Below are positions 39,757-60,392 of a DNA stretch of 64,000 nucleotides, piece by piece. The notes beneath the pieces were generated by a model. That model was not told the origin of the DNA, ran no database searches, and worked only from the letters and a program-made list of their open reading frames with translations. Position numbers and translations under genes: made by a program. The stretch is from Ostreococcus lucimarinus (lineage: Eukaryota), in the NCBI GenBank assembly GCA_000092065.1, contig CP000589.1. One strand, 5' to 3'. Numbering within the stretch: position 1 is the stretch's first letter; each line of letters begins with the position of its first letter.

Positions 39757-41586
39757 TCACGACGACGACGCGGACGCGACGACGGGCCGCGCGCGCGCCA
39801 GGGCGTCGGGAACGATGACCTCGGCGGTGACGTCGTCGAATTCGGGTTCGCCCAACCGTCGACGAACCATGCGATATAAATCAGGATTGGCGTCGATGCG
39901 CGGCTGAAACAACGAATCGCTCGCGCCGAAATACTTTGGCGATTTGAGCATCTTGTCGATCATGCGATGGACCCACGGAGCCATGACGCGAAGGACGAAA
40001 CGCACGACGGTGGTGGGGATGAAACGCATCTTGACGTCGGCGTGGACGACGATGTCGCCGCGGGTGCGGATGGATTTTGAACCGGCGACGGGCGGGAGCG
40101 CGCGCATGCGCATGCCGCAATTGCCGACGAATTCGATGCGCTTGCGCGATTTGGCGGACGGTGGCGCGCCCGAACCCAGGTCGTCGCCCGATTTGTTGGT
40201 TCGAGTGATTAATATCGCACACGAATGCGGGACTTCTGATTCGAAATCATCCATGCCGGGGATGTTCAAGTGATCGTACGCTCGCGTCGGCGGTTGACCG
40301 ACGTACGTGGAATCGATGACGATGATTTTGTCTCGAGCGCTCAGCGGCCAGGGAAGCCAAATGGCGGAGTATACGACCAAGTGCGTGAGCCCGCGAACGA
40401 GCATTATGGACGTTTCTATGGCATAGACGTTCCAAAGCGTCATTAAATCCCACTCGCGCGCGATGGCGACGAGTCTATGCGGCGGCGCGTCAAACGTCGC
40501 GCTCAGTTTGATGCTGTGCACCGTTCCGCCTTTGAAGCGTCCGTAATATATCACCAAACGCTCGTCCAAATCAGGGTCGGCCTCGAACGTTTCTTGCACC
40601 ACCCCCGGGACGCCAGCGGTTCCACGCACGCTGCTTTCACCTCCGCTCTCGCTCCCGCTCAACGGATCTGGTTGCGTCGCGATGACGGCGCCGTCGCTCG
40701 AACTCACGCTACCGCTCCTCGAGTGTCTGCTTCGTCTCCGACGTCCATACCGAGGCGCCAACGGGTCTTCTTCACCGTCCGACATCGACGCGCGCGAACT
40801 CGCAAGATCGGTGAGTTCGCCAAAATCAATCACGCCTCGTTTCTCCCTATCCGTCCGTCCTAAACTCACCTCGACTTCGGCGCCCGACTGTCGCAAACTT
40901 CTCCGAGCGTCGTTCGCGCCCCCACGCTCGAAATCCACGCTCGAAGCCCACTGTCGACTCAACCCTCGCCCTAAATCTATGCTCGACGTCCGTCGACTCC
41001 CGCTCTCGCTCGCTCGCATCCGCCCGAAATCCACGCTCGACGTCCTCCGCATCCCAAAGTCCACGCTCGACGCTCGCCGGCTGTGATTCGCTCCAATGAT
41101 GACCTCCGCGTCCACCTCCACGCTCGCCTGTCGCCGATGATGCGCCGCTCGCTTCGCCCCCTTATCCACCGGTTTCCACCCATCGTGATGTTCCTCTAAT
41201 TCAACGTCGTTCAGCGCGATCGCTTGTTCGTACACGTCCCGCCACGCCTCGCGTCGACGCGTCGACGCCTCGTCCCGCGCGCTCCCCGTCGCGTCCTCCC
41301 GCGCCACCATCCACAGCGCCGCCTCGAGCTCGCCGAGCGCCGCCAACCGTTCGGCATCGTTCGCGCACGCGTCCACCGTCGTCAGCGCGTCCGCGCGGCC
41401 GATCCACTCGCGCCGCGCGCGCGCGACGTCGAAATTCGCGTCGCATCGCACGTCGTCGTCCCAATCGATCTCGAACGCGTCGTGACGCGCGTCGTGGAAC
41501 GCGTCGTGGAGCGCGTCGACGTCGGCGTCGGCGCGCGCGACCGCGTCTCCATCGTCGGCGCGCGGTCTGCAGCAGCGCGCGCCCAT
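39757..41586 (-). CDS. hypothetical protein with N-terminal MGxxCC dual-acylation motif, triple RRxSSVDFG repeats and a C-terminal START/SRPBCC-like domain
   Basis: Starts MGARCCRP (myristoylation Gly2 plus Cys5/6). Repeats RASSVDFG / RTSSVDFG / ASSVDFE. C-terminal about 250 aa of mixed beta/alpha character (VIYYGRFKGGTVHSIKLSATFDAPPHRLVAIAREWDLMTLWN). The ORF extends to 41733, but the MGARCC start is preferred. Confidence 0.45.
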   Translation of the reverse strand: MGARCCRPRADDGDAVARADADVDALHDAFHDARHDAFEIDWDDDVRCDANFDVARARREWIGRADALTTVDACANDAERLAALGELEAALWMVAREDATGSARDEASTRRREAWRDVYEQAIALNDVELEEHHDGWKPVDKGAKRAAHHRRQASVEVDAEVIIGANHSRRASSVDFGMRRTSSVDFGRMRASESGSRRTSSIDLGRGLSRQWASSVDFERGGANDARRSLRQSGAEVEVSLGRTDREKRGVIDFGELTDLASSRASMSDGEEDPLAPRYGRRRRSRHSRSGSVSSSDGAVIATQPDPLSGSESGGESSVRGTAGVPGVVQETFEADPDLDERLVIYYGRFKGGTVHSIKLSATFDAPPHRLVAIAREWDLMTLWNVYAIETSIMLVRGLTHLVVYSAIWLPWPLSARDKIIVIDSTYVGQPPTRAYDHLNIPGMDDFESEVPHSCAILITRTNKSGDDLGSGAPPSAKSRKRIEFVGNCGMRMRALPPVAGSKSIRTRGDIVVHADVKMRFIPTTVVRFVLRVMAPWVHRMIDKMLKSPKYFGASDSLFQPRIDANPDLYRMVRRRLGEPEFDDVTAEVIVPDALARARPVVASASSS

Positions 41587-42191
41587 GACGGGCGCGCGTC
41601 GCGCGATGGCGCGTCGCGCGCGCCGCGCGTTCGTTAAATACGGTGATTGATAGCGTTCGCGCGCGCGCGAGGCATCGCGCGACCGCACACGCGCGCGCGA
41701 CGCGCCGTCGCGAGCGAACGCGCGAGGGAACATGCGCGCGATTACGATGGAGGTCCCGGTCGACGCCGCGGCGCCGCGGCGCGCGCGCGCGAGCGAGACG
41801 ACGAAGGAAACGATGCGCGCGCGGGTCAGGGTTGCGCGCGCGCGGTGCGGGACGACGAACGCGCGAGACGGCGCGCGCGACGTCGCCGCGCGCGCGGGAC
41901 GACGCGTGGAGGTGCGTGTGATATCGCGCGATCGCGCGCGCGCGCGACGACCGGCGGAGAGACGCGGAAAGGGCGATCGGAGGCGCGGCGGTGCGCGACG
42001 CTGGTGGTGGGTTGAGGGTTAGAGCGCGAGGGCGCGCGACGGCGTCGAATTCGGTTCGCGACGAAGACGATGGACGCCGATGCGCGGCGATGCGAACGCG
42101 GGAAAACGCACGAGACTGACGGTGTGAATTGTGGTCGTTCGCGCTGACGCAGACGCGGGCGTCGTCGGATGCGATTCCGGATTCGTTTAAG

Positions 42192-43041: not shown

Positions 43042-44316
43042 ATGCACGCCTTCGCGCCGTTCGCCAACGCCTCGGCGACGCCCACGGTTCGTCAAACGAC
43101 GTCGAAGCGTCAACAGACGTCATCGCGCTCGAACGCGATCGCGCGCGTCGTTCGCGCGAATGCGCGGTCGAACGACGCCGAAGACGCGGTCGGCGATGCG
43201 ACGACGCGTCGTCGAGCGATCGCGACGCTGTTCGCGGGTGCGGTAGGCACCGCGGGGGCGGTCGGGAGCGCCAAGGCGGACGTGCAAGATTACCTGTCAA
43301 ACTTGCTCGTCGAAAAGCCGCCGCCGCCGAAACGGGAAATTTTGCTCCCGGATCTCGAGGTCAAGCCGTTGACTCGAGAAGAGGGGTACCGAGGAACGAC
43401 GGGGGCGAACAAATCCAAGGCGCAGATCGAGTTTGCGCAGTTTATCGCGCCGATCATCGAGGAGAATATTGATATGGACTTTGGGTCGTACTTCCGATTG
43501 GCGTTGGCGGATTTGGGGACGTTCTCCGTCGTCGGTAAGAAGAATGGGTTGAACGGAAGCATTCGATTCGAACTCGACCGTCCGGAAAATGCTGGATTGA
43601 AGCCGGCGTTCAATTCGATCGAAAAGATTAAAAAGGCTGTGGACGCGAAGACGACGCAGCCGATTACGTACGCGGATTTGATCGCCATCGTTCCGCATTT
43701 TGCGGCTCGCAGACAGTTCAAGGCGGATTACATGGAGGAAGTCGGGGACGATAAGAACTACGAGTTCTTGTTCATCGGCACCAACCCGTTCTTGGGGGCG
43801 AAAATTCGCATCGGTCGCCGTGACGCCGACGGTCCCGATCCCGAAGGTTTGATTCCGCTCGTCGACGGCAACGCCGAGGATTTCATCGCCTGGTTCCGTC
43901 GCATGGGTCTCGGTCCGAACGAACTCGCCGCGCTCGCGCCGTACATCTACGAGGATCGTCAAAAAGGTATCGATATTTGTGCCCAAGACGGCACGTGCGC
44001 GCGTTTGCTCGACGTGTACGAGACGCAGCGCATTTTGGGCAAGCGCGCCCCGGGGCCGGCGGTGACCATCATCAAGAACCTCAAGCAATGCACCGATCAG
44101 TGCATTCCGGGCGGTCCGCTGAGCGTCGCCCCGGCGCAGCTCGATCCGCTCTACGTCGACTACGCCTTCATCAAGGGTGGCGGCGAGATCCCGCGCATCT
44201 CCGCCTCGGGCGCGTACCCGGGCTCGATTTACGACAGCGGCAGCAAGTTGGCCATGCAACTTCGCGCGTCTCAGGCCGAACAGCGCGCGCAGGCCGCCGC
44301 CGCCGCCGGTAACTAA
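43042..44316 (+). CDS. thylakoid-lumen targeted (twin-arginine) protein, peroxidase-like (TL29/APX4-like) - tentative
   Basis: Bipartite presequence with Tat motif TRRRAIATLFAGAVG. Weak class-I-peroxidase-like blocks (SYFRLALADLGTF). Otherwise no catalytic His/Arg recognised. Confidence 0.4.
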   Translation: MHAFAPFANASATPTVRQTTSKRQQTSSRSNAIARVVRANARSNDAEDAVGDATTRRRAIATLFAGAVGTAGAVGSAKADVQDYLSNLLVEKPPPPKREILLPDLEVKPLTREEGYRGTTGANKSKAQIEFAQFIAPIIEENIDMDFGSYFRLALADLGTFSVVGKKNGLNGSIRFELDRPENAGLKPAFNSIEKIKKAVDAKTTQPITYADLIAIVPHFAARRQFKADYMEEVGDDKNYEFLFIGTNPFLGAKIRIGRRDADGPDPEGLIPLVDGNAEDFIAWFRRMGLGPNELAALAPYIYEDRQKGIDICAQDGTCARLLDVYETQRILGKRAPGPAVTIIKNLKQCTDQCIPGGPLSVAPAQLDPLYVDYAFIKGGGEIPRISASGAYPGSIYDSGSKLAMQLRASQAEQRAQAAAAAGN

Positions 44317-45018: not shown

Positions 45019-47247
45019 ATGGCGCGAGGGGCGCACGCGCGGACGCGCTCGATGCGCGCGCTCGCGGTGACGCTGACGCTGACGCTGTCGCGATGGCGCG
45101 TCGGCGCGGCGATGACGACCGACGGTTTGACGTCGTCGGATCACCGATCGCGACGCGCGCGCGGCGACGAGGACGCGCGACGCGCGCGCGGTCGTCCGGC
45201 GACGTGGACGGCGTGCGCGGGTCCGTCGCGCGCGGCGCTCGAGCTCGCGTGGCGCGCGGAGACGCACGCGTCGGTGTACGCGACGCCGCTCGCGGAGGAC
45301 GTCGACCGGGACGGACGAGGCGCGGCGGTGACGCAGACGACGAGCGCGCGCGTTCGAGCGCACGACGGCGCGACGGGAATCGATTTAGACGGCGAGAGCT
45401 GGGGCGCGCGACTCGGCGCGGCGTCTCGGGGAGGCGTGGTGAGGATCGGGGAGGCGTACGCGAGCGCGTCGCTGGCGGGCGAGGCGAGGACGTTCGACGG
45501 CGAGCGAACGCGCGCGGTCGCGCGATTAGCGCCGCTGGCGATGGCGGTGGATTGGTTCGGTGACGATGGATCGGGGAAGAGCGACGCGGGCGATCCGCGC
45601 GAGGTTGAGCGGAGACACGAGGCGAGACGACGCGCGCCGGGATCGAGGCGGTTGTTGGACGTCGAAGACGAAGACGAAGAGGAAGAGCCGACGACGATGA
45701 GCGCGGAGGAAGAGGCGAGGAGCGATCGCGGTTGGGACGCGATCGATAGTGGCGGTGATTCGACGCGCGATGTCGCGAGTGGGTCCGTCGAGGCGCGGCG
45801 AGCGGTGGACGGACGAGTCTTCGTGGACGCGCACGCGTTGTGCACGCCCGCCGTCGGCGACGTGGACGGTGACGGCGAACCCGAGCTCGTGCTCGCGGTG
45901 TCGTATTATTTCGATTCTTCCGTGCGCTTTGAAGACGACGTCGATCCGAAGCAGTACGCCGCGACGGCGTTGGTCGTGTTGAACGGCGAGGACTTGTCCA
46001 CCAAGCGCTCGATCGCGCTCGATCAGAGCGCGGCGACGGCGCTGTTCAAAGCCAGAGCGTACGCCCCGCCGACGCTCGTCGATGTCGACGGCGATGGACG
46101 ATTGGACATCGTGATCGGCACGTACGCTGGCGTTTTGCACGTCGTGGACGGCGTTTCGGGGAATCCCTTGCCGGGATGGCCTCGACGGCTCGGACAGATG
46201 GAAGCGCAAGTCACCGCCGCGGACGTCGACTCGGATGGTGACATCGAACTCATCGCGTGCGACGTTCGCGGGACGGTGGCGGTGTTTAAATCGAACGGCG
46301 TCGAGCTTTGGAACAAGCACGTCGAGTCTCGGATTGCCGTCGCGGCGAGCGTAGGAGACGTCGACGGCGACGACGAAATCGAAATCGTCGTCGGCGACAC
46401 CTCTGGCGCCGTGCACGCGTTTCGCGCCAAAGACGGCACCGCACGCGAGCACTGGCCGGTGTACGTGGGCGATAAAATTCTCGCCCCGATCGTGCTCACG
46501 AAACTTCGTCAAACAAAACGCGGGCTCGATGTCATCGTCGCCACGCACGACGGCGTGGTGCACGTGCTCGAGGGCCGAAGTCGATGCCGCGACGTCTTTG
46601 ATATCGCCGAAAAGATTTACGCCGCGCCGTTTGTCACCTCTTTTGCCGGCTTCGGCGAACTCGACGTGATAATTTCCACGATGGAGGGTCACGTGCGCTC
46701 GTTCAAGGCGAAAGGGTCAAAGTTTAATGCGTTGGCGTTGACGTCGAGCGATCACGTGTCTCGCTACGATTATTTCGGTGTGGCGCTGTACGATCGCACT
46801 TATCGCGTCATTCGTGGAACGTACGTTGATGTGGTTTATGAAATCATCGATAGACGCGTGCTCGATCACGCCAAGGCGAGGAAATCGTCGCTCGCGCCGT
46901 ACAAGGTTGCGATTACGGTGACGAGTTTGGATGGTTTCAAGAAGATCGTCTCCGCTCGACACGATCGCGCCGGTCGGTACACGCTTCGGGTGGGCGTTCC
47001 ATCGACGAAAACGCGCGGGGAGATCCGAGTGCGCGTTCAAGATGTCAACTTGATCGCCGACGAAGACGCGTATTCGGTTTCGTTTCACGAAAATTACGAG
47101 ATCGCCTTGAAATGGCTCGTCGCCCTACCGTTTCTTCTCGCGAGCGCGGCGGCGATTCGGCGCGCGAGCGAAGACGCGCTCGAGATGGATGTCTTTGGCG
47201 CGTCAGCCTCGATTCCAACCACCACGAAGGGGATGCACGAGGAATAG
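45019..47247 (+). CDS. DEX1 (DEFECTIVE IN EXINE FORMATION 1)-like FG-GAP/calcium-binding repeat membrane protein
   Basis: Signal peptide [12 protein letters not shown]. Multiple FG-GAP/Ca-binding repeats ([62 protein letters not shown]). C-terminal [16 protein letters not shown]. Confidence 0.65.
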
Positions 47248-47255
47248 TAGTAGCT

Positions 47256-47861
47256 TTAGTTGTTCGTATATTGCACGTATGTATCCATTGACATGAATTC
47301 ATGTCCATTCTCGGCAGCCATCTCTTGCGTCTCGTCCCAAGGACACCCGCGCTCACGCGCGTACTTCAAACATTCCAACTCTCCATCCATGGCGGCAAGT
47401 GCGCACGTCCACTCGTTCCAGGGACATCCATTCTCGTGCGCGTACTTCAAACACTCCAATTGTCCGCTCCGGGCGGCATTCATGCACGTCCTCTCGTCCC
47501 AAGGACAGCCGTGCTCGTGCGCGTACTTCAAACATTCCAAATGTCCATTCCGGGTGGCGTAATAGCACGTCCTCCAGTCCCAAGGACACTCGCGCTCGTG
47601 CGCGTACTTCAAACACTTCAAATGCCCATTCATGGCGGCATTCGCAGACGTCCATTCGTTCCACGGAAAGTCGAGTCGCCGCGCCTCCTTCAGCTGCTCG
47701 AGATAGCCAAGTTCCGCGAGTTTTGAGCAAACTAAGCCGTCTGCATCGCGCTGCGGTCCGCGAGATACATTCTCGAGGCAAGTCTCGAGGCAATCGTGAG
47801 TCTGACTGGCCCGGCGCTTGATCAATTCGCGCAAACGCGCGTATGGGTCCTTCTTAGCCAT
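47256..47861 (-). CDS. ankyrin-like repeat protein with 33-aa 'GHLECLKYAHExGCPW(D/N)E(W/R)TC' repeats
   Basis: 201-aa ORF with five tandem 33-residue repeats, also visible as about 99-bp nucleotide tandem repeats at 47300-47700. Confidence 0.55.
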   Translation of the reverse strand: MAKKDPYARLRELIKRRASQTHDCLETCLENVSRGPQRDADGLVCSKLAELGYLEQLKEARRLDFPWNEWTSANAAMNGHLKCLKYAHERECPWDWRTCYYATRNGHLECLKYAHEHGCPWDERTCMNAARSGQLECLKYAHENGCPWNEWTCALAAMDGELECLKYARERGCPWDETQEMAAENGHEFMSMDTYVQYTNN

Positions 47862-48251
47862 GTGTTTGAGAGTCGCGATGTGACCACCGACGTCGTTCTC
47901 GCGCGAGATCGAATACGCGACGGGATCAAACGCGCGCGACGACGAACGAGCGTCGACGTAAACGGGCGTTCGTACATGTAATTACATCACGCTTGAAACC
48001 GTTCGCGCCGAGCGGAGCCGGCGGTATCACGTAAAACATCAAAAAATTAAACAAAATACGTCGAGCGAGCGGCTCGCCAAAGCTCGCGCGCGATAATCGA
48101 CGCCGCCACCGAACGTTAAAACGTCCGTTTCGCGACGGCGCGTCACATCTCACGCGCGAGTTCACGCACGCTCACCCGAACGCTCGCGCCGATCTCTCGA
48201 GATCGCGTCGCGACGGTTAACCCAACAGCTTCTTGTAATTGTAATAGACGG

Positions 48252-48725
48252 TTAACCCAACAGCTTGACGATTTTCGCTTCGTTATCCGCCGCGCCGTCC
48301 CCGTTGCGTTCGACGACGTTTCCATCGCGATCCACCAAAAACTTACACGCAAAGTTCCATCGCACGTCGGATTCATCCCCCGACGCCTTTTTCAAGAACG
48401 TCCACACCGGCGACGCGTCCGCGCCGTTCACGTTCGTCTTCGCCGTCACCGTCGGCGCCGTCTCGAATTCTTGCTTCGCCACGAACGCCGCGATGTCCTC
48501 CGCCTTCGCCAGCTCCTGTCCCCCGAACTGCCCGCTCGGCGTGAGCACGACGACTAAATCCGGCGAGTACTTGTTCGACAAGTCGCGCAGCGCCGCGTAC
48601 TCGCGCTTCGTCGCGCCTCACCTGCTCGCGACGTTCGTCACGAGCACGACTTTGCCCTTCATCGATGCAAACTCGATCGTCGAGCCGTCGAGCGCGGGCG
48701 CGCGCAGGTCGTGGAACGCCGCCAT
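48252..48725 (-). CDS. GPX: glutathione peroxidase, selenocysteine-containing (in-frame TGA = Sec at 48618-48620)
   Basis: Two same-frame ORFs separated only by one TGA. Upstream ends ...KGKVVLVTNVASR-TGA, downstream continues GATKREYAALRDLSNKYSPDLVVVLTPSGQFGGQE ... WNFACKFLVDRDGNVVER. The TGA sits exactly at the GPX catalytic Sec/Cys position (NVAS[Q/R]-U-G-x-T); catalytic Gln (GQFG) and Trp-Asn (WNF) are conserved. Alternative upstream start at 48815 would add a presequence. Confidence 0.7.
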
Positions 48726-48818
48726 CGCGCGCGTGACTCTTCCGCGCGCGCGCTTCGAGCGAGCGACGCGCGCGGGCGCGAACGAGCGAGCGAACGCGCC
48801 GAGCGCTCGCGTCATACT

Positions 48819-49508
48819 ATGACGCCGACGCCGATCTTCGGCCGCGTGTTCCTCGGCGCGCGCGCGCCGACGCGCGCGGACGCGCGGCTCGCGTGCGAGC
48901 ACGGACTGCGGTGCGGGCACAACTACCCGAGCGAGCTCGTCGGGACGTCGGACTGCGACGAGGAGGCGCCGGGACAGCGCGCGAGGTTGGAGGGACAGCG
49001 ACGACGGTCGTGGGCGATAGATCGCACGCGCGCGCGCGTCGGACGCGGCGCGCGCGCGTACGAACGCGCGGTGAAAGCGCTGAAGTCGTGGGAGCACTTC
49101 GATCTCGGTTGGGCGCGCGTGTCGCGAGAGAGCGGCACCGCGGTCGGGGACGCGGTGTGCGTCGAGGCGCGCGTGGCGGGCGTGTGGATGCGGAATCCGC
49201 TGCGCATCGTCGAGCTTCGCGAGCGGGAGAAGCGCGCGAGCGGAGGCGCGTCGTCGTCGTCCGGGGCGAGGGCGAAGGCGCGGTTCGCGTTCGCGCACGG
49301 GACGCTCGGCGGGCACTTGCTCGCGGGGGAGGAGCGGTTCTCGGTGGAGCTCGCGGAGGACGGCGAAGTGTTTTACGAGGCCTACGCGTTCAGCAGGCCC
49401 GCGCACGCGCTGAGCGTGGTGAGTTATCCGTTCGTGCGATTGTTGCAAAAGCGGTTTCACTGGGATTCGTCGCGGGCGATGCGTAAAATCTTGAGCGAGG
49501 CGGAGTAG
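48819..49508 (+). CDS. DUF1990/UPF0548-family protein
   Basis: About 230 aa with blocks VKALKSWEHFDLGWARV and FAFAHGTLGGHLLAGEERFSVE, characteristic of DUF1990. The ORF extends upstream to 48711, but MTPTPIFG at 48819 is the preferred start. Confidence 0.45.
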   Translation: MTPTPIFGRVFLGARAPTRADARLACEHGLRCGHNYPSELVGTSDCDEEAPGQRARLEGQRRRSWAIDRTRARVGRGARAYERAVKALKSWEHFDLGWARVSRESGTAVGDAVCVEARVAGVWMRNPLRIVELREREKRASGGASSSSGARAKARFAFAHGTLGGHLLAGEERFSVELAEDGEVFYEAYAFSRPAHALSVVSYPFVRLLQKRFHWDSSRAMRKILSEAE

Positions 49509-54212: not shown

Positions 54213-56675
54213 TCAGCCGGCGGCGCTCGCGATGACGATGGAACGGTCGGCACCGTTTACACCGCTCTTTTTCTTCCGCAACAACGCCAACTCGTCGTGC
54301 AACATCGTTAGTTCGTGCGTGTACGCGTCCTTGTGCGCGATGAACATCTTTAGCTCGCTTCGCAAGCCTTTGATTTGACGCGACTTTTCCTTGATGTGCG
54401 CGTGCGTCTCTCGTAGCTCCTCAAACGCTCGAGGTCCGGGTTGACGGGACAACACCACGCGAAGTTCGGCGAGTACTTTTGTTTTCTCGCTAATCAGAAT
54501 GTCTTTCGTCGTCACTTCTTCCGTTTTCGTGATCAGTTTGCGCTGCAACATTTGAACTTTCTGAATCAACTCGTACATAGTCGGATCGCTGCCTTTGAGC
54601 TGTCGCCAACGATGGACATTCATCGGATTCTCGAGTTCCTCGCTGAGTGCCTTAACTTTTGTGCGTTCGTGGAGAAGTTCGCGACCAAGCGTTTGGACTT
54701 CGTGCTTCAACGCATCGATGCTTGCCGCCGCTTCTCGCAGGGACGTGAGTTCTTGCGCGTGCGACGCCAATCTGAGCTTCAACGTTTTAATCTCGCGAAC
54801 GCGCTCACGATACTCGGCTTGGCCTTGATTCAAAATTTTCTGCTGAACCTTGACTTTCTCGTAAAGTAGCGCGCATTCTTGATTCCGCTGCACAAGTTGT
54901 GCGTTGAGAACGTCACGATCACGCTTGATGACATCGAGCTGCTTGCGATGCGCCTCGCGACTTTCTCGCAACGACGCCACAGATGAGCGTAGCGTCTTCG
55001 ATTCATCACTCGTATGCTTCAGAGACTCTTGCGTCTCGCGAAGCGTCGAGTTTAGCTTATCATTCTGTCGTCGTAGAGCATCGTGTTCTTTGTCCAACTT
55101 GCGATGCTCGAAACGCTCGCCCGCGATGACGGCGTCCTTCATTCTAAGTTCCTCGTGCAAACCTTCCATCGCCACAGTCTTGGCCTTGAAATCGCGTTTG
55201 ATCTCCGCAATTTGTGACTGGGCCTCGACGAGAGACTTTGATTGTTGATTGCGTTCCGCGCACACGACGTCGTACGCGTGCTCGGCTTGCTTAATTTTGC
55301 TTTCTGCATCTTGTAATTCTTGCCGTAAATCAACGATTTGAGACTGTCGATCATGAACGTCATCCTCCAACTTTTCCTGACGACGCACCGCCGCCGCGAT
55401 GTCCGCCAATAACTTTGCACGTTCTTGATCGAGACTTTTTATCTGCATCTCTTGCTTAACTTGTTCGCGTTTGTAACTCTTGATTTCGTTTTCGAGTGTT
55501 TGACGCTGCGCCTCATGAATACGCAGCAAATCTTGTTGCCGACTTGTGGCGTTCTGCGCCTGCGTAGTCGTCTTCAGAAGGACATCGCGCTCGCGCATAA
55601 GATCTTCTTTTCGCCTTTGCTCGTTATCTAAGTCTCTTTTTTGTTGCTCGAGACGTTGTTTGAGTAATTGAATCTCGCGCTTGAGCGCATTCTTTGCGTC
55701 GTCTGCGTTCAATTTCGTTTGCTCCGCCGCGCGGAGTTTAGACTCTAGTTGAGTGGACTTTTTTAAAGTACTCTCCTTTTCACGCTCGAGCGTTTTGATT
55801 TCATCGTTCAACGCTCGAATTTCGTGCATCTTGGCCGTGTTTGCATCCTCAGCACTCTTATTACTCGCGCGAGCTTCGTCAAGTTCGCGATGAAGCTTGT
55901 CAGATTTGCTCGCTAACACGTTCAACTCTTTCTGAGCCGCCTCTGTCCGTCGCTCTTGCAAACAAGTATCTTTTTCTAGCTTGATAATCATTTCGTCAGC
56001 CTTTGTTATCCTCGCTTTATACTCTCTGATCTCAATGTCGCGTTCTTCAGAGCGTTCCTGTACCTCGCGCATCTCGCGCTCGAGACGTTCCTTCGTGCGC
56101 TTTTGCCGCTCCACCTCCATCGCACTCGCGTGCGACAGATCACGTGCATTTTGTAATTCTACGTCTAAATCTAATTTCGTCGATTCAGCCTTTCTCGTTC
56201 GCTCCGATAGCTTATCGATATCCTCCCTGAGCCTGATGGTTTGCTCGAGTAATTCATCTCGTTCGGCGGTGAGACTCTCCTTGGCGCTCAGTAACGATTC
56301 AATCTCGCGCGAGTTCGCCCTTCGCGCACTCGCGCGCTCCATAAACAACCCATCACTGGTCGTCGTTTCGCAACCCCCTAGCTTGTCTTCATCTCGTGTC
56401 AGCCGTTCAATTTCCATCTTCAATTCGCTCGCCTCGCGCTTACTCGCCAACTCGCTCTCGTGCGATTCATCCACCATCGCCCACGCCTTCTCTAACTCTT
56501 CTTTGAGCGCATCGATGGTTGATTGATCTTCCCGCGACAAATCCAGCGTCATCATCATTTTCCTCGCCTGTCCGCGACACTCCTCCGCGAGCGTCGCGCA
56601 CTTTGCCGTCAACGCTCGCTCGCGCTCCGCGGCGTCCGCGAGCGCGGCCCTCACCTTATCGCACTCTTCTCGCAC
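54213..56675 (-). CDS. long coiled-coil protein, CFAP58/CCDC147-like (cilia/flagella-associated) - tentative
   Basis: 820-aa almost entirely coiled coil. C-terminal block ENPMNVHRWRQLKGSDPTMYELIQKVQMLQRKLITKTEEV ... LSRQPGP resembles the conserved CFAP58 C-terminal motif. Confidence 0.5.
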   Translation of the reverse strand: MREECDKVRAALADAAERERALTAKCATLAEECRGQARKMMMTLDLSREDQSTIDALKEELEKAWAMVDESHESELASKREASELKMEIERLTRDEDKLGGCETTTSDGLFMERASARRANSREIESLLSAKESLTAERDELLEQTIRLREDIDKLSERTRKAESTKLDLDVELQNARDLSHASAMEVERQKRTKERLEREMREVQERSEERDIEIREYKARITKADEMIIKLEKDTCLQERRTEAAQKELNVLASKSDKLHRELDEARASNKSAEDANTAKMHEIRALNDEIKTLEREKESTLKKSTQLESKLRAAEQTKLNADDAKNALKREIQLLKQRLEQQKRDLDNEQRRKEDLMRERDVLLKTTTQAQNATSRQQDLLRIHEAQRQTLENEIKSYKREQVKQEMQIKSLDQERAKLLADIAAAVRRQEKLEDDVHDRQSQIVDLRQELQDAESKIKQAEHAYDVVCAERNQQSKSLVEAQSQIAEIKRDFKAKTVAMEGLHEELRMKDAVIAGERFEHRKLDKEHDALRRQNDKLNSTLRETQESLKHTSDESKTLRSSVASLRESREAHRKQLDVIKRDRDVLNAQLVQRNQECALLYEKVKVQQKILNQGQAEYRERVREIKTLKLRLASHAQELTSLREAAASIDALKHEVQTLGRELLHERTKVKALSEELENPMNVHRWRQLKGSDPTMYELIQKVQMLQRKLITKTEEVTTKDILISEKTKVLAELRVVLSRQPGPRAFEELRETHAHIKEKSRQIKGLRSELKMFIAHKDAYTHELTMLHDELALLRKKKSGVNGADRSIVIASAAG

Positions 56676-59309: not shown

Positions 59310-60392
59310 TCATTCGAAACAAAACGGTAAGGTGATGACGGACTCGGCATCGCGAGCCGGAAATTTCAACTCCAACAGCGCGCTCGCGATGTCGAGCATG
59401 ATGGCGTCGCGAATGTCCGTCTCACTCGGGAGCTCGGGCAAAGGAATCGGCGTCAGGGTATCGCACGTCCATCGTAGATTGGTCACCGCACCATCTGGAG
59501 CTACGGTGAGCGCGGCGCAAACCATGCCGCTCGCTCGGGGAAGCTCGACGAGACGTCCGTACAGTTCCCCGAGCGCGCCCTCGAGCGTCGGCGACGCGTC
59601 CTCCTCCGTCAATGCGCCAGAAAACGACGGTTCGGGGTCTTTAAACCATCCGTGTAGTACCAACCTTCCGTGCCTCGGATCTTGAGTCCCGAAAACTTCA
59701 GTGACGCCGTGCGGTAGGCGCGGGTCGAACGCCACGAGACGCCCAAACGTCGGCGCGATGGTCTCCATGATTTGCGACCGCTCGACGACCTCGCCGGCGT
59801 CAAAATTCTTCCAATAATTCAATCGCTCGGGGCGCATTATTTGCGTTTCACCGCCCCTAAAATGTGCGCCGTACGACCCATCCTCCGCGTCGTTCTTTGT
59901 CAAACTGAGCACGAAGGCCCACGGTCCGTGCGGCACATCGGCGTGCAACTCTTGCCGCATCCCGTGCACGTAACACGACATCCACACCGGCGTGATCGCC
60001 GAGCATCCCAACTCTCTCCGTCCGTACTCCAACAGCGCCTTTTCCAACTCGCCGTACCGCTCGGCGCCGAAATAGTCCTCCGCGGGCGTTCGCAGCAGCG
60101 TGTACTGATTCGGCACGTGCCAGTAATCCCACACGAACCGCTCCGGATCCACGCGCAGCGGATCGCGCGTGCGTCCATCGTACACGGCGCGCAAATCGTT
60201 CGCGAAATCGCTCACGAAGCCATCGACGACGCGCCAGTGCGTCGGTTTTTCCGCGATTTCCACGTCGAACCCAGCGTCCGCGTCGTCCTCGTTCGTCGCC
60301 CTTCGCGTCCCGCGCGCGCGCCGCGAGCGACGGCGCGTGCGCACCGTCGTTCCCGACGCGCGCGCGCGCGCGACGCTCGACAGCGCCGACAT
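59310..60392 (-). CDS. hypothetical protein, possible 2-oxoglutarate/Fe(II)-dependent oxygenase-like fold
   Basis: 360-aa ORF. Candidate HxD...H iron-binding arrangement (HADVPHG ... RLPHGVTEV) within a predicted beta-rich core. Weak evidence. Confidence 0.35.
   Translation of the reverse strand: MSALSSVARARASGTTVRTRRRSRRARGTRRATNEDDADAGFDVEIAEKPTHWRVVDGFVSDFANDLRAVYDGRTRDPLRVDPERFVWDYWHVPNQYTLLRTPAEDYFGAERYGELEKALLEYGRRELGCSAITPVWMSCYVHGMRQELHADVPHGPWAFVLSLTKNDAEDGSYGAHFRGGETQIMRPERLNYWKNFDAGEVVERSQIMETIAPTFGRLVAFDPRLPHGVTEVFGTQDPRHGRLVLHGWFKDPEPSFSGALTEEDASPTLEGALGELYGRLVELPRASGMVCAALTVAPDGAVTNLRWTCDTLTPIPLPELPSETDIRDAIMLDIASALLELKFPARDAESVITLPFCFE

What the first reader, a model, noticed from the sequence alone, without database searches (positions are those of the whole stretch)
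48252..48725. Selenocysteine-encoding glutathione peroxidase: in-frame TGA at the catalytic position
The minus-strand reading frame is continuous across a single TGA (48618-48620). Upstream encodes ...FASMKGKVVLVTNVASR, downstream GATKREYAALRDLSNKY...GQFGGQE...WNFACKFL. The stop codon falls exactly where GPX has its catalytic Sec/Cys (NVAS-x-U-G-x-T), and the rest of the catalytic tetrad (Gln, Trp, Asn) is present. This is the expected signature of a selenoprotein and would be missed by standard ORF callers (the track shows two separate ORFs). A SECIS element should lie in the 3' UTR (47862-48251).
Basis: partly seen in the sequence, partly recalled or inferred. Interest (0 to 1): 0.7.

Follow-up and report, generated by a model that had tools for sequence, protein, structure and literature searches.

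The report
Known Ostreococcus selenocysteine glutathione peroxidase (GpxC)
This is a real selenocysteine-encoding glutathione peroxidase gene with its recoding RNA hairpin (SECIS) downstream, but it is the GpxC selenoprotein of the green alga Ostreococcus lucimarinus that was published in 2007, so it is correct and ordinary.

Summary
On the minus strand one reading frame runs from ATG 48815 (or the second ATG at 48725) to TAA 48254-48252. It is interrupted only by TGA at 48620-48618, inside the motif NVASR-U-GAT. The read-through protein is a full-length glutathione peroxidase (Pfam GSHPx, 1.1e-25) with the Gln, Trp and Asn catalytic partners present.

The predicted SECIS exists at 48160-48083 in the 3' UTR. 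It has a GUGA/GA core, a 10-bp helix II, an unpaired AAA 12 nt from the core, a 7-bp mini-stem and an 11-bp helix I. This is the "G before the quartet plus long mini-stem" form described for Ostreococcus.

- Orthologues in at least seven other Mamiellales-like lineages keep the TGA, and most show a SECIS-like hairpin.
- The one lineage with TGT (Cys) has no such hairpin.
- dN/dS is about 0.26 on both sides of the TGA.

The protein matches "O. lucimarinus GpxC" in the supplement of Lobanov et al. 2007 (PMC2375036) in every aligned segment, allowing for text-extraction errors. Interest is low.

The parts
48252..48815 (-). Full GpxC coding sequence: 187 codons including Sec66, plus the TAA stop at 48254-48252. 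It starts at ATG 48815-48813.
   Evidence: Translation. The N-terminus MTRALGAFARSFAPARVARSKRARGRVTRAMAAFHDL matches the published O. lucimarinus GpxC model.
48726..48815 (-). N-terminal 30-codon extension rich in Arg, Ala and Ser. It is probably an organelle-targeting presequence. It would be 5' UTR if translation starts at the second ATG, 48725-48723.
   Evidence: Orthologues L013, L003 and L018 also have an upstream Met with an R/A/S-rich extension. dN/dS is about 1.05 here against 0.26 in the mature part. Targeting is inferred, not tested.
48618..48620 (-). In-frame TGA, read as selenocysteine (U66 of the full model), in the motif VTNVASR-U-GATK.
   Evidence: The same TGA is present in L001/L002, L013, L014, L015, L016-L023, L025-L029 and L034-L036, and in L033, L035, L037 and L039 of the Micromonas-like group. 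The published sequence shows NVASRUGATKREYAALRDL.
48252..48617 (-). Part of the GPX domain downstream of Sec. It carries the catalytic Gln (QFGGQE) and Trp-Asn (VRWNF). Automatic gene callers report it as a separate 98- or 109-aa protein.
   Evidence: dN/dS is 0.27 against sister contig L018.
48083..48160 (-). SECIS element (type II), 78 nt, starting 92 nt after the stop codon (the GUGA core starts 106 nt after it).
   Evidence: The minimum-free-energy fold of both the isolated stretch and the whole 390-nt UTR gives this hairpin. It is the top hit of two independent pattern scans of the whole window, both strands. Chance expectation for an equally strong hit is 0.03 per 128 kb. There is 1 change in 78 nt against L018. 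Covariation was counted against L022 and L013.
48143..48146 (-). 5' half of the SECIS core: GUGA. A G precedes the UGA, as in nearly all published Ostreococcus SECIS elements.
48095..48098 (-). 3' half of the SECIS core: GAUU. It supplies the sheared G.A/A.G tandem with the 5' UGA.
   Evidence: A GA is found at the same structural position in all SECIS-bearing orthologues.
48128..48130 (-). Unpaired AAA of the apical bulge, starting 12 nt after the core UGA.
   Evidence: It is invariant in alignment A3.
48110..48127 (-). Apical 7-bp mini-stem (CGGACGU / ACGUUCG) with a UUUA loop.
   Evidence: A long mini-stem is the second hallmark of Ostreococcus SECIS elements.

Best explanation
The locus is the gpxC gene of Ostreococcus lucimarinus, or a strain indistinguishable from it here. 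It encodes a monomeric GPX4/plant-type glutathione peroxidase whose peroxidatic residue is selenocysteine. The mRNA carries a type II SECIS hairpin about 100 nt past the stop codon. In eukaryotes such a hairpin is bound by SBP2, which recruits the Sec-specific elongation factor with Sec-tRNA(Sec). UGA66 is then read as Sec instead of stop, giving a 187-residue precursor (about 157 residues if the N-terminal extension is removed). The selenolate, activated by the conserved Gln, Trp and Asn, reduces hydroperoxides and is recycled by thiols. Shown here: the frame, the domain, the position of the TGA, the hairpin, their conservation, and the match to the published sequence. Inferred from established knowledge: SBP2/eEFSec recruitment, Sec insertion, the catalytic chemistry, and organelle targeting of the presequence.
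For: - Frame and domain: there is a single in-frame TGA and a complete GSHPx domain.
- Catalytic position: alignments to solved GPX structures put the TGA on the catalytic column.
- Invariant residues: N61-V-A-S64, G67, Q100, W153 and N154 do not vary across five orthologue lineages.
- SECIS anatomy: GUGA/GA core, 10-bp helix II, AAA at +12, 7-bp mini-stem and 11-bp helix I, all in the 3' UTR on the coding strand.
- SECIS specificity: two whole-window scans find no other canonical hit. Shuffles give 0.03 equally strong hits per 128 kb.
- Match to the literature: Lobanov et al. 2007 describe Ostreococcus SECIS elements as having a G before the quartet and a long mini-stem. This one has both.
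- TGA and SECIS occur together: TGA-bearing orthologues have a SECIS-like hairpin 50-250 nt after the stop. These are the L016-L018, L022-L028, L029, L036 and Micromonas-like L033-L044 groups, L013/L019 and L014. The TGT (Cys) lineage L003/L030/L031 has none.
- Covariation: between the window, L018, L022 and L013 hairpins, 97% of cells are paired and 9 pairs change on both sides. 0 of 500 shuffles reach this, and slid controls give 29-58% paired.
- Selection: dN/dS against the 88%-identical sister L018 is 0.26 upstream and 0.27 downstream of the TGA. dS is 0.17-0.32, yet the SECIS differs at only 1 of 78 nt, a change that turns a U-G pair into C-G.
- Identity: every segment matches 'O. lucimarinus GpxC' in Additional file 2 of PMC2375036, which prints U at this position.
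- Experimental support from the sister species: 75Se labelling of O. tauri is reported in the same paper. O. tauri 'Glutathione peroxidase C' (ostta09g00530) was quantified by proteomics in PMC8834552.
Against: - Rfam's SECIS covariance models give no match, even at E<=10 on a 106-nt stretch. This probably reflects how far these algal GUGA/long-mini-stem elements lie from the Rfam models, but it is still a failed test.
- The base after the core UGA is a C.C mismatch rather than a pair. Orthologues show U.U or C.U at the same place.
- No Sec machinery (tRNA-Sec and the rest) lies in the window, so the organism's competence rests on the literature.
- No direct evidence of Se incorporation exists for this particular O. 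lucimarinus protein in what I read.
- My own SECIS scanners missed or found no element in a few TGA orthologues: L034, L045/46 (gene ends uncertain because of introns) and L040 (flank only 153 nt).
Confidence: 0.95

Rival explanations
1. The gene is a pseudogene. A Cys codon (TGT/TGC) mutated to TGA, so the product is truncated after 65 residues and the downstream part is decaying.
For: A syntenic orthologue (L003/L004/L030/L031) has TGT at this codon. A single transversion would therefore turn Cys into stop. Rfam finds no SECIS.
Against: The TGA is kept in at least seven further lineages at 43-88% protein identity, with the downstream domain intact. dN/dS downstream of the TGA is 0.27, the same as upstream. 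A conserved, covarying SECIS hairpin accompanies TGA and is missing only where the codon is TGT. The gene is published as a selenoprotein.
Confidence: 0.02
2. The TGA is a sequencing or assembly error, and the true codon is TGT or TGC.
For: None beyond the general possibility.
Against: Ten independent metagenome assemblies from different studies are 97.4-100% identical across this region. TGA was read directly in L001, L002, L016 and L017. The published genome-derived sequence shows U.
Confidence: 0.01
3. There are two separate small genes: a 65-residue N-terminal peptide, and a 98-109-residue protein started at an internal codon, as automatic callers annotate it.
For: Gene callers in public collections emit exactly these fragments.
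Against: Neither fragment is a complete GPX fold, because the catalytic residues are split between them. The internal 'start' codons used by the callers (TTG at 48581, or a later one) are not conserved features. The callers are prokaryote-style tools with no Sec model.
Confidence: 0.02

Closest known systems
Ostreococcus lucimarinus GpxC (Lobanov et al. 2007, Genome Biol 8:R198, Additional data file 2)
   Same: Every aligned segment printed there matches the window protein: MTRALGAFARSFAPARVARSKRARGRVTRAMAAFHDLRAP / ALDG / STIEFASMKG...NVASRUGATKREYAALRDL...YSPDLVVVLTPSGQF / GGQELAKAEDIA AFVAKQEFETAPT VTAKTNVN / GADASPVWTF LKKAS GDES / DVRWNFA.KFLVDRDGNVVERN DGAADNEAKIVKLLG. This includes the fast-evolving presequence, which differs at about 8 of 30 residues even in the 88%-identical sister contig L018.
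   Different: Nothing substantive. A few letters differ in the machine-read PDF text (for example KGVVLIIVNVASRU and NKKYSP), and these look like text-extraction errors. I could not see the paper's SECIS drawing for this gene, because the figures are not held.
Ostreococcus tauri GpxC (ostta09g00530, 'Glutathione peroxidase C')
   Same: It is the orthologous Sec-GPX, with the same NVASRUGAT motif and a WNF-x-x-KFLV insertion. It was quantified at the protein level in O. tauri proteomics.
   Different: It is strongly diverged outside the motifs. I did not examine its SECIS here.
Human GPX4 and plant or trypanosome GPX4-type peroxidases (PDB 2obi, 2p5q, 2rm5/3dwv)
   Same: It is of similar length to these GPX4-type chains and aligns to them with only a few small gaps. 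It has the same NVAS-x-U/C-G-x-T, FGxQE and WNF catalytic blocks (E-values 1e-20 to 1e-25).
   Different: Plant and trypanosome members use Cys. Human GPX4 uses Sec, and most eukaryotic SECIS elements have A rather than G before the quartet. This clade has one extra residue in WNF-AC-KF, often a Cys, and a divergent LTPSGQF in place of FPCNQF.
Ostreococcus-type SECIS elements (G before the quartet, long mini-stem, type II)
   Same: It has a GUGA core, an AAA bulge at +12, a 7-bp mini-stem and a long helix I.
   Different: Rfam's SECIS models do not recognise it. Some orthologues (the L022 group, L014, L036) use AUGA instead.

Membership tests
Glutathione peroxidase family (Pfam PF00255 GSHPx) | Full-length match to the family profile above the curated threshold | tested here: met
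   89.7 bits against a cut-off of 27, profile positions 1-108 of 108, E = 1.1e-25. Forty-one GPX-type PDB sequences match with E <= 2e-7.
Glutathione peroxidase family (Pfam PF00255 GSHPx) | Catalytic tetrad: Sec/Cys in NVAS-x-(U/C)-G-x-T, Gln in FGxQE, and Trp-Asn in WNF | tested here: met
   The TGA aligns to the catalytic Cys of GPX structures. Q100, W153 and N154 are invariant in five lineages.
Glutathione peroxidase family (Pfam PF00255 GSHPx) | Hydroperoxide-reducing activity and identity of the reducing substrate (GSH or thioredoxin) | not testable with these tools
   This needs an enzyme assay on the recombinant or native protein.
Eukaryotic selenoprotein gene | In-frame UGA aligned with Sec or Cys in homologues, with coding conservation on both sides | tested here: met
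   TGA is found in at least seven other lineages and TGT in one. dN/dS is 0.26 upstream and 0.27 downstream.
Eukaryotic selenoprotein gene | SECIS element in the 3' UTR of the same transcript | tested here: met
   There is a structure-defined SECIS at 48160-48083, between the stop (48252) and the next gene (47861). That it lies within the mRNA is inferred, because the poly(A) site is not mapped.
Eukaryotic selenoprotein gene | The organism has Sec-insertion machinery (tRNA-Sec, eEFSec, SBP2, SPS, SecS) | not testable with these tools
   There is no tRNA gene in the window and the machinery genes are not in these 64 kb. The literature reports 29 selenoproteins in O. lucimarinus and 75Se labelling in O. 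tauri.
Eukaryotic selenoprotein gene | Selenium is actually incorporated at this codon | not testable with these tools
   This requires 75Se labelling or mass spectrometry of the U-containing peptide.
SECIS element (kink-turn RNA; Rfam SECIS families) | Non-Watson-Crick quartet: (A/G)UGA on the 5' side facing GA on the 3' side | tested here: met
   GUGA at 48146-48143 faces GAUU at 48098-48095. The same arrangement is seen in the SECIS-bearing orthologues.
SECIS element (kink-turn RNA; Rfam SECIS families) | Helix II of about 10 bp followed by unpaired AA(A) about 10-13 nt from the core; apical loop or mini-stem; helix I below an internal loop | tested here: met
   Helix II has 10 bp, the AAA is at +12, the mini-stem has 7 bp and helix I has 11 bp. 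Base pairs are supported by changes on both sides in 9 pairs.
SECIS element (kink-turn RNA; Rfam SECIS families) | Match to an Rfam SECIS covariance model | tested here: not met
   No SECIS family was reported at E<=10 in 47000-49500 or in 48070-48175. Membership therefore rests on the structural criteria and on the published description of Ostreococcus SECIS elements.
O. lucimarinus GpxC (specific published gene) | Protein sequence identity to the published GpxC, including the variable presequence | tested here: met
   Segment-by-segment match to Additional file 2 of PMC2375036.

The most novel reading that the evidence does not exclude
Two modest readings are not excluded. First, the GpxC clade of Mamiellales offers a clean natural Sec/Cys switch. 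A close pair of lineages (the L022/L015 group with TGA plus SECIS, and the L003/L031 group with TGT and no SECIS) share synteny, an intron position and a near-identical C-terminus, so the order of codon change and SECIS loss could be reconstructed. Second, the extra Cys in the clade-specific WNF-AC-KF insertion could act as a resolving thiol for the selenenic acid, which would make this a thioredoxin-dependent Sec-GPX. Neither idea was tested beyond the sequence observations.
Probability: 0.25. Interest if true: 0.3.

Novelty: already known. Interest (0 to 1): 0.1.

Why it matters
As a discovery it matters little. Five Sec-containing GPX genes, this one included, were catalogued in O. lucimarinus and O. 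tauri in 2007, and Sec-GPX is the most widespread algal selenoprotein.

It has practical value as a positive control for the scan:
- A tool-free reader correctly recognised a recoded UGA and predicted where its SECIS would lie.
- Public gene calls in metagenome and genome collections still split this gene into fragments.
- Rfam's SECIS models miss the Ostreococcus-type element.

Annotation pipelines for picoeukaryote genomes and metagenomes will therefore keep mis-annotating such genes unless a dedicated selenoprotein step is added.

Tried and rejected
- **Rfam scans.** I ran cmscan with permissive thresholds on 47000-49500 and on the 106-nt candidate alone. There was no SECIS hit, only chance matches (a Burkholderia sRNA and mir-2518).
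- **MAFFT alignment across clades.** Aligning the hairpins from the Ostreococcus-like and Micromonas-like lineages put the cores out of register, so it was unusable for covariation.
- **Covariance model R1.** I built it from four Ostreococcus-like SECIS sequences. It recovered only its own relatives at 70-91 bits. Everything else scored 24 bits or less and was GC-rich hairpin noise. It did not reach the Micromonas-like, L014, L029 or L036 elements, so it adds specificity information but no new members.
- **Second SECIS-like pattern hit.** The hit at 39963-39922 (-) lies inside a long ORF and is weak. It agrees with the chance expectation of about 1.3 loose hits per window, so I rejected it. 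The hits at 59506-59595 (+) and 49805-49719 (-) from the fold-based scan lie in coding sequence and are not canonical, so I rejected them too.
- **Organism identity from cluster names.** The clusters carried no organism names. The Prp19-like protein gave O. tauri at 77% as the best named hit, which fixes the genus only. The species came from the literature supplement.
- **tRNA-Sec in the window.** None was found.

Full report
**1. The observation**

Reading the minus strand from 48875 to 48252 gives one open frame with a single internal stop...MTRALGAFARSFAPARVARSKRARGRVTRAMAAFHDLRAPALDGSTIEFASMKGKVVLVTNVASR*GATKREYAALRDLSNKYSPDLVVVLTPSGQFGGQELAKAEDIAAFVAKQEFETAPTVTAKTNVNGADASPVWTFLKKASGDESDVRWNFACKFLVDRDGNVVERNGDGAADNEAKIVKLLG*. 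From the raw sequence the internal stop is TGA at 48620-48618 and the terminal stop is TAA at 48254-48252. With the stop replaced by Cys, the protein matches Pfam GSHPx over the whole profile (1-108/108, 89.7 bits, cut-off 27).

**2. Where the gene starts**

An ATG at 48815-48813 adds 30 Arg/Ala/Ser-rich residues. Orthologues also have an upstream Met with such an extension, and the published model of this gene starts at MTRALG. Between the window and its 88%-identical sister contig L018, these 30 codons have dN/dS of about 1.05. There are no indels and the ATG is conserved. This fits a loosely constrained targeting peptide but does not prove one.

The divergently transcribed DUF1990 gene starts at 48819 on the plus strand, 3 nt from this ATG. 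The 5' regions of the two genes must therefore overlap.

**3. The SECIS element**

The 390-nt interval between the stop and the next gene (an ankyrin-like ORF starting at 47861) contains a 78-nt hairpin at 48160-48083. The hairpin reads: CUCGCGCGUGA | GAU | GUGA | C | GCGCCGUCGC | GAAA | CGGACGU-UUUA-ACGUUCG | GUGGCGGCGU | C | GAUU | A | UCGCGCGCGAG.
- Helix I has 11 bp and is followed by a small internal loop.
- The core is GUGA facing GA.
- A C.C mismatch comes next, then a 10-bp helix II.
- An unpaired AAA begins 12 nt after the core.
- The apex is a 7-bp mini-stem.

RNAfold recovers this hairpin as the minimum-free-energy structure of both the isolated stretch and the whole UTR, although it cannot model the sheared G.A pairs. 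A simple SECIS pattern scan of both strands of the whole 64-kb window gave two hits. This one was by far the stronger. A fold-based scan gave this as the only canonical hit. Thirty dinucleotide-preserving shuffles gave 1.27 loose hits and 0.03 equally strong hits per 128 kb. The chance of such a hit in a given 390-nt, one-strand target is therefore about 1e-4.

Rfam's SECIS models do not detect the element, even on the 106-nt stretch alone. I record that as a failed test. Lobanov et al. [quoted passage not shown] This hairpin has both features. That departure from the usual eukaryotic form probably explains the miss, although I did not check what the Rfam models were built from.

**4. Comparative evidence**

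A protein search found truncated 107-128-aa relatives, and I read their contigs. A metagenome scan added 31 loci.
- The TGA is present in the window species itself (L001, L002, L016, L017), with six more contigs of that species 99.8-100% identical across the region.
- It is present in an 88% sister (L018) and in four Ostreococcus-like or otherwise unplaced lineages at 52-56% identity (L013/L019-21; L015/L022-28; L014; L045/46).
- It is present in three more distant lineages at 43-46% (L029, L034, L036).
- It is present in a GC-rich, Micromonas-like group, as NVACK*GAT (L033, L035, L037, L039).
- One lineage (L003/L004/L030/L031) has TGT at this codon. It is syntenic with the window (DnaJ, DUF1990, GPX, DEX1-like) and very close to the L022/L015 group.

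A SECIS-like hairpin lies 50-250 nt after the stop in the TGA lineages where enough flank is available. The exceptions are L034 and L045/46, where my scans found none. The TGT lineage has no such hairpin and no remnant of one.

The window, L018, L022 and L013 hairpins can be aligned. On that alignment 97% of cells pair and nine pairs show changes on both sides. None of 500 shuffles reaches this, and slid registers give 29-58% pairing. There are two caveats: only four sequences were used, and the structure was derived from them.

Between the window and L018, dN/dS is 0.26 for the mature part upstream of the TGA and 0.27 downstream. dS is 0.17-0.32. The 78-nt SECIS differs at a single base, a change that turns a U-G pair into C-G, while the surrounding UTR has substitutions and indels.

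Together these results exclude a pseudogene, an assembly error and a two-gene reading.

**5. What it is and how it works**

The window is Ostreococcus. The Prp19-like protein is 77% identical to its O. tauri counterpart, which is the best named hit. The supplement of Lobanov et al. 2007 (PMC2375036, Additional file 2) prints an alignment in which 'O. lucimarinus GpxC' matches the window protein segment by segment, with U at the TGA position. The match includes the fast-evolving presequence. The gene is therefore the already catalogued GpxC selenoprotein, one of five Sec-GPX genes in each of O. lucimarinus and O. tauri.

The mechanism is inferred from established selenoprotein biology. The 3' UTR SECIS kink-turn recruits SBP2 and the Sec-specific elongation factor with Sec-tRNA(Sec). 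UGA66 is decoded as Sec, and the selenolate reduces hydroperoxides with the help of Gln100, Trp153 and Asn154.

There is experimental support in the sister species. 75Se labelling of O. tauri is reported in the same paper. O. tauri 'Glutathione peroxidase C' (ostta09g00530) was quantified by proteomics. I found no direct Se-incorporation data for this O. lucimarinus protein.

**6. Verdict**

The SECIS was located at 48160-48083. The feature is already known and interest is low. Its main use is as a positive control. It also shows that prokaryote-style gene callers still split this gene and that Rfam misses Ostreococcus-type SECIS elements.

Noticed in passing
window 48212-48266 (minus strand): The last five codons, the stop and 5 nt beyond it (AAGCTGTTGGGTTAACCGTC) occur twice, 35 nt apart, at 48266-48247 and 48231-48212, separated by TATTACAATTACAAG. 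The sister contig L018 has a single copy, so the window species carries a 35-nt duplication or insertion directly after the stop codon. As a result its SECIS core lies 106 nt from the stop, against 67 nt in L018.
   Followed up: partly
window 48813-48821: The GpxC upstream ATG (minus strand, 48815-48813) and the ATG of the divergent DUF1990 gene (plus strand, 48819-48821) are only 3 nt apart. Each gene's 5' UTR and promoter must lie inside the other's coding sequence. In the related contig L003 the same two genes are about 500 nt apart.
   Followed up: partly
L003/L004/L030/L031 compared with L015/L022-L028: Two closely related lineages differ in the catalytic codon and in the SECIS. They have near-identical C-termini, the same intron position after NYQ, and the same synteny. 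One has TGA plus an AUGA-type SECIS. The other has TGT, no SECIS and a much shorter 3' intergenic region. This looks like a recent Sec-to-Cys switch with SECIS loss.
   Followed up: partly
window 54213-56675 (minus strand): An 820-aa ORF matches the CFAP58 (cilia- and flagella-associated protein 58) central coiled-coil family at 7.5e-44. From my own knowledge, Ostreococcus is described as having no flagellum. The hit may reflect coiled-coil composition or a retained, repurposed gene.
   Followed up: no
window 47256-47861 (minus strand): A 201-aa protein made of ankyrin-like 'G(H/Q)LECLKYAHE.GCPWDE' repeats sits between GpxC and the DEX1-like gene. It is absent from the syntenic contigs L003 and L004. 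The exact protein is indexed in 795 blocks of the public assembly collection, so this species is very common in marine metagenomes.
   Followed up: no
window 39922-39963 (minus strand): This is a weak SECIS-like pattern match: AUGA core, 9 of 12 helix II pairs and a 7-bp helix I. It lies inside the 658-aa ORF 39757-41733, which has no Pfam match. It agrees with the chance expectation of about 1.3 loose hits per window.
   Followed up: partly
window 43042-44316 (plus strand): A 424-aa ORF has a haem peroxidase (PF00141) domain, so a second peroxide-detoxifying gene lies about 4 kb from GpxC.
   Followed up: no
GpxC clade alignment A1, window residues 153-159 (WNFACKF): This clade has one extra residue relative to the usual WNF-x-KF block, giving WNFACKF. 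The Cys is conserved in the Ostreococcus-like lineages but is Ala in L014 and in the Micromonas-like group. It might act as a resolving thiol, but this was not tested.
   Followed up: no
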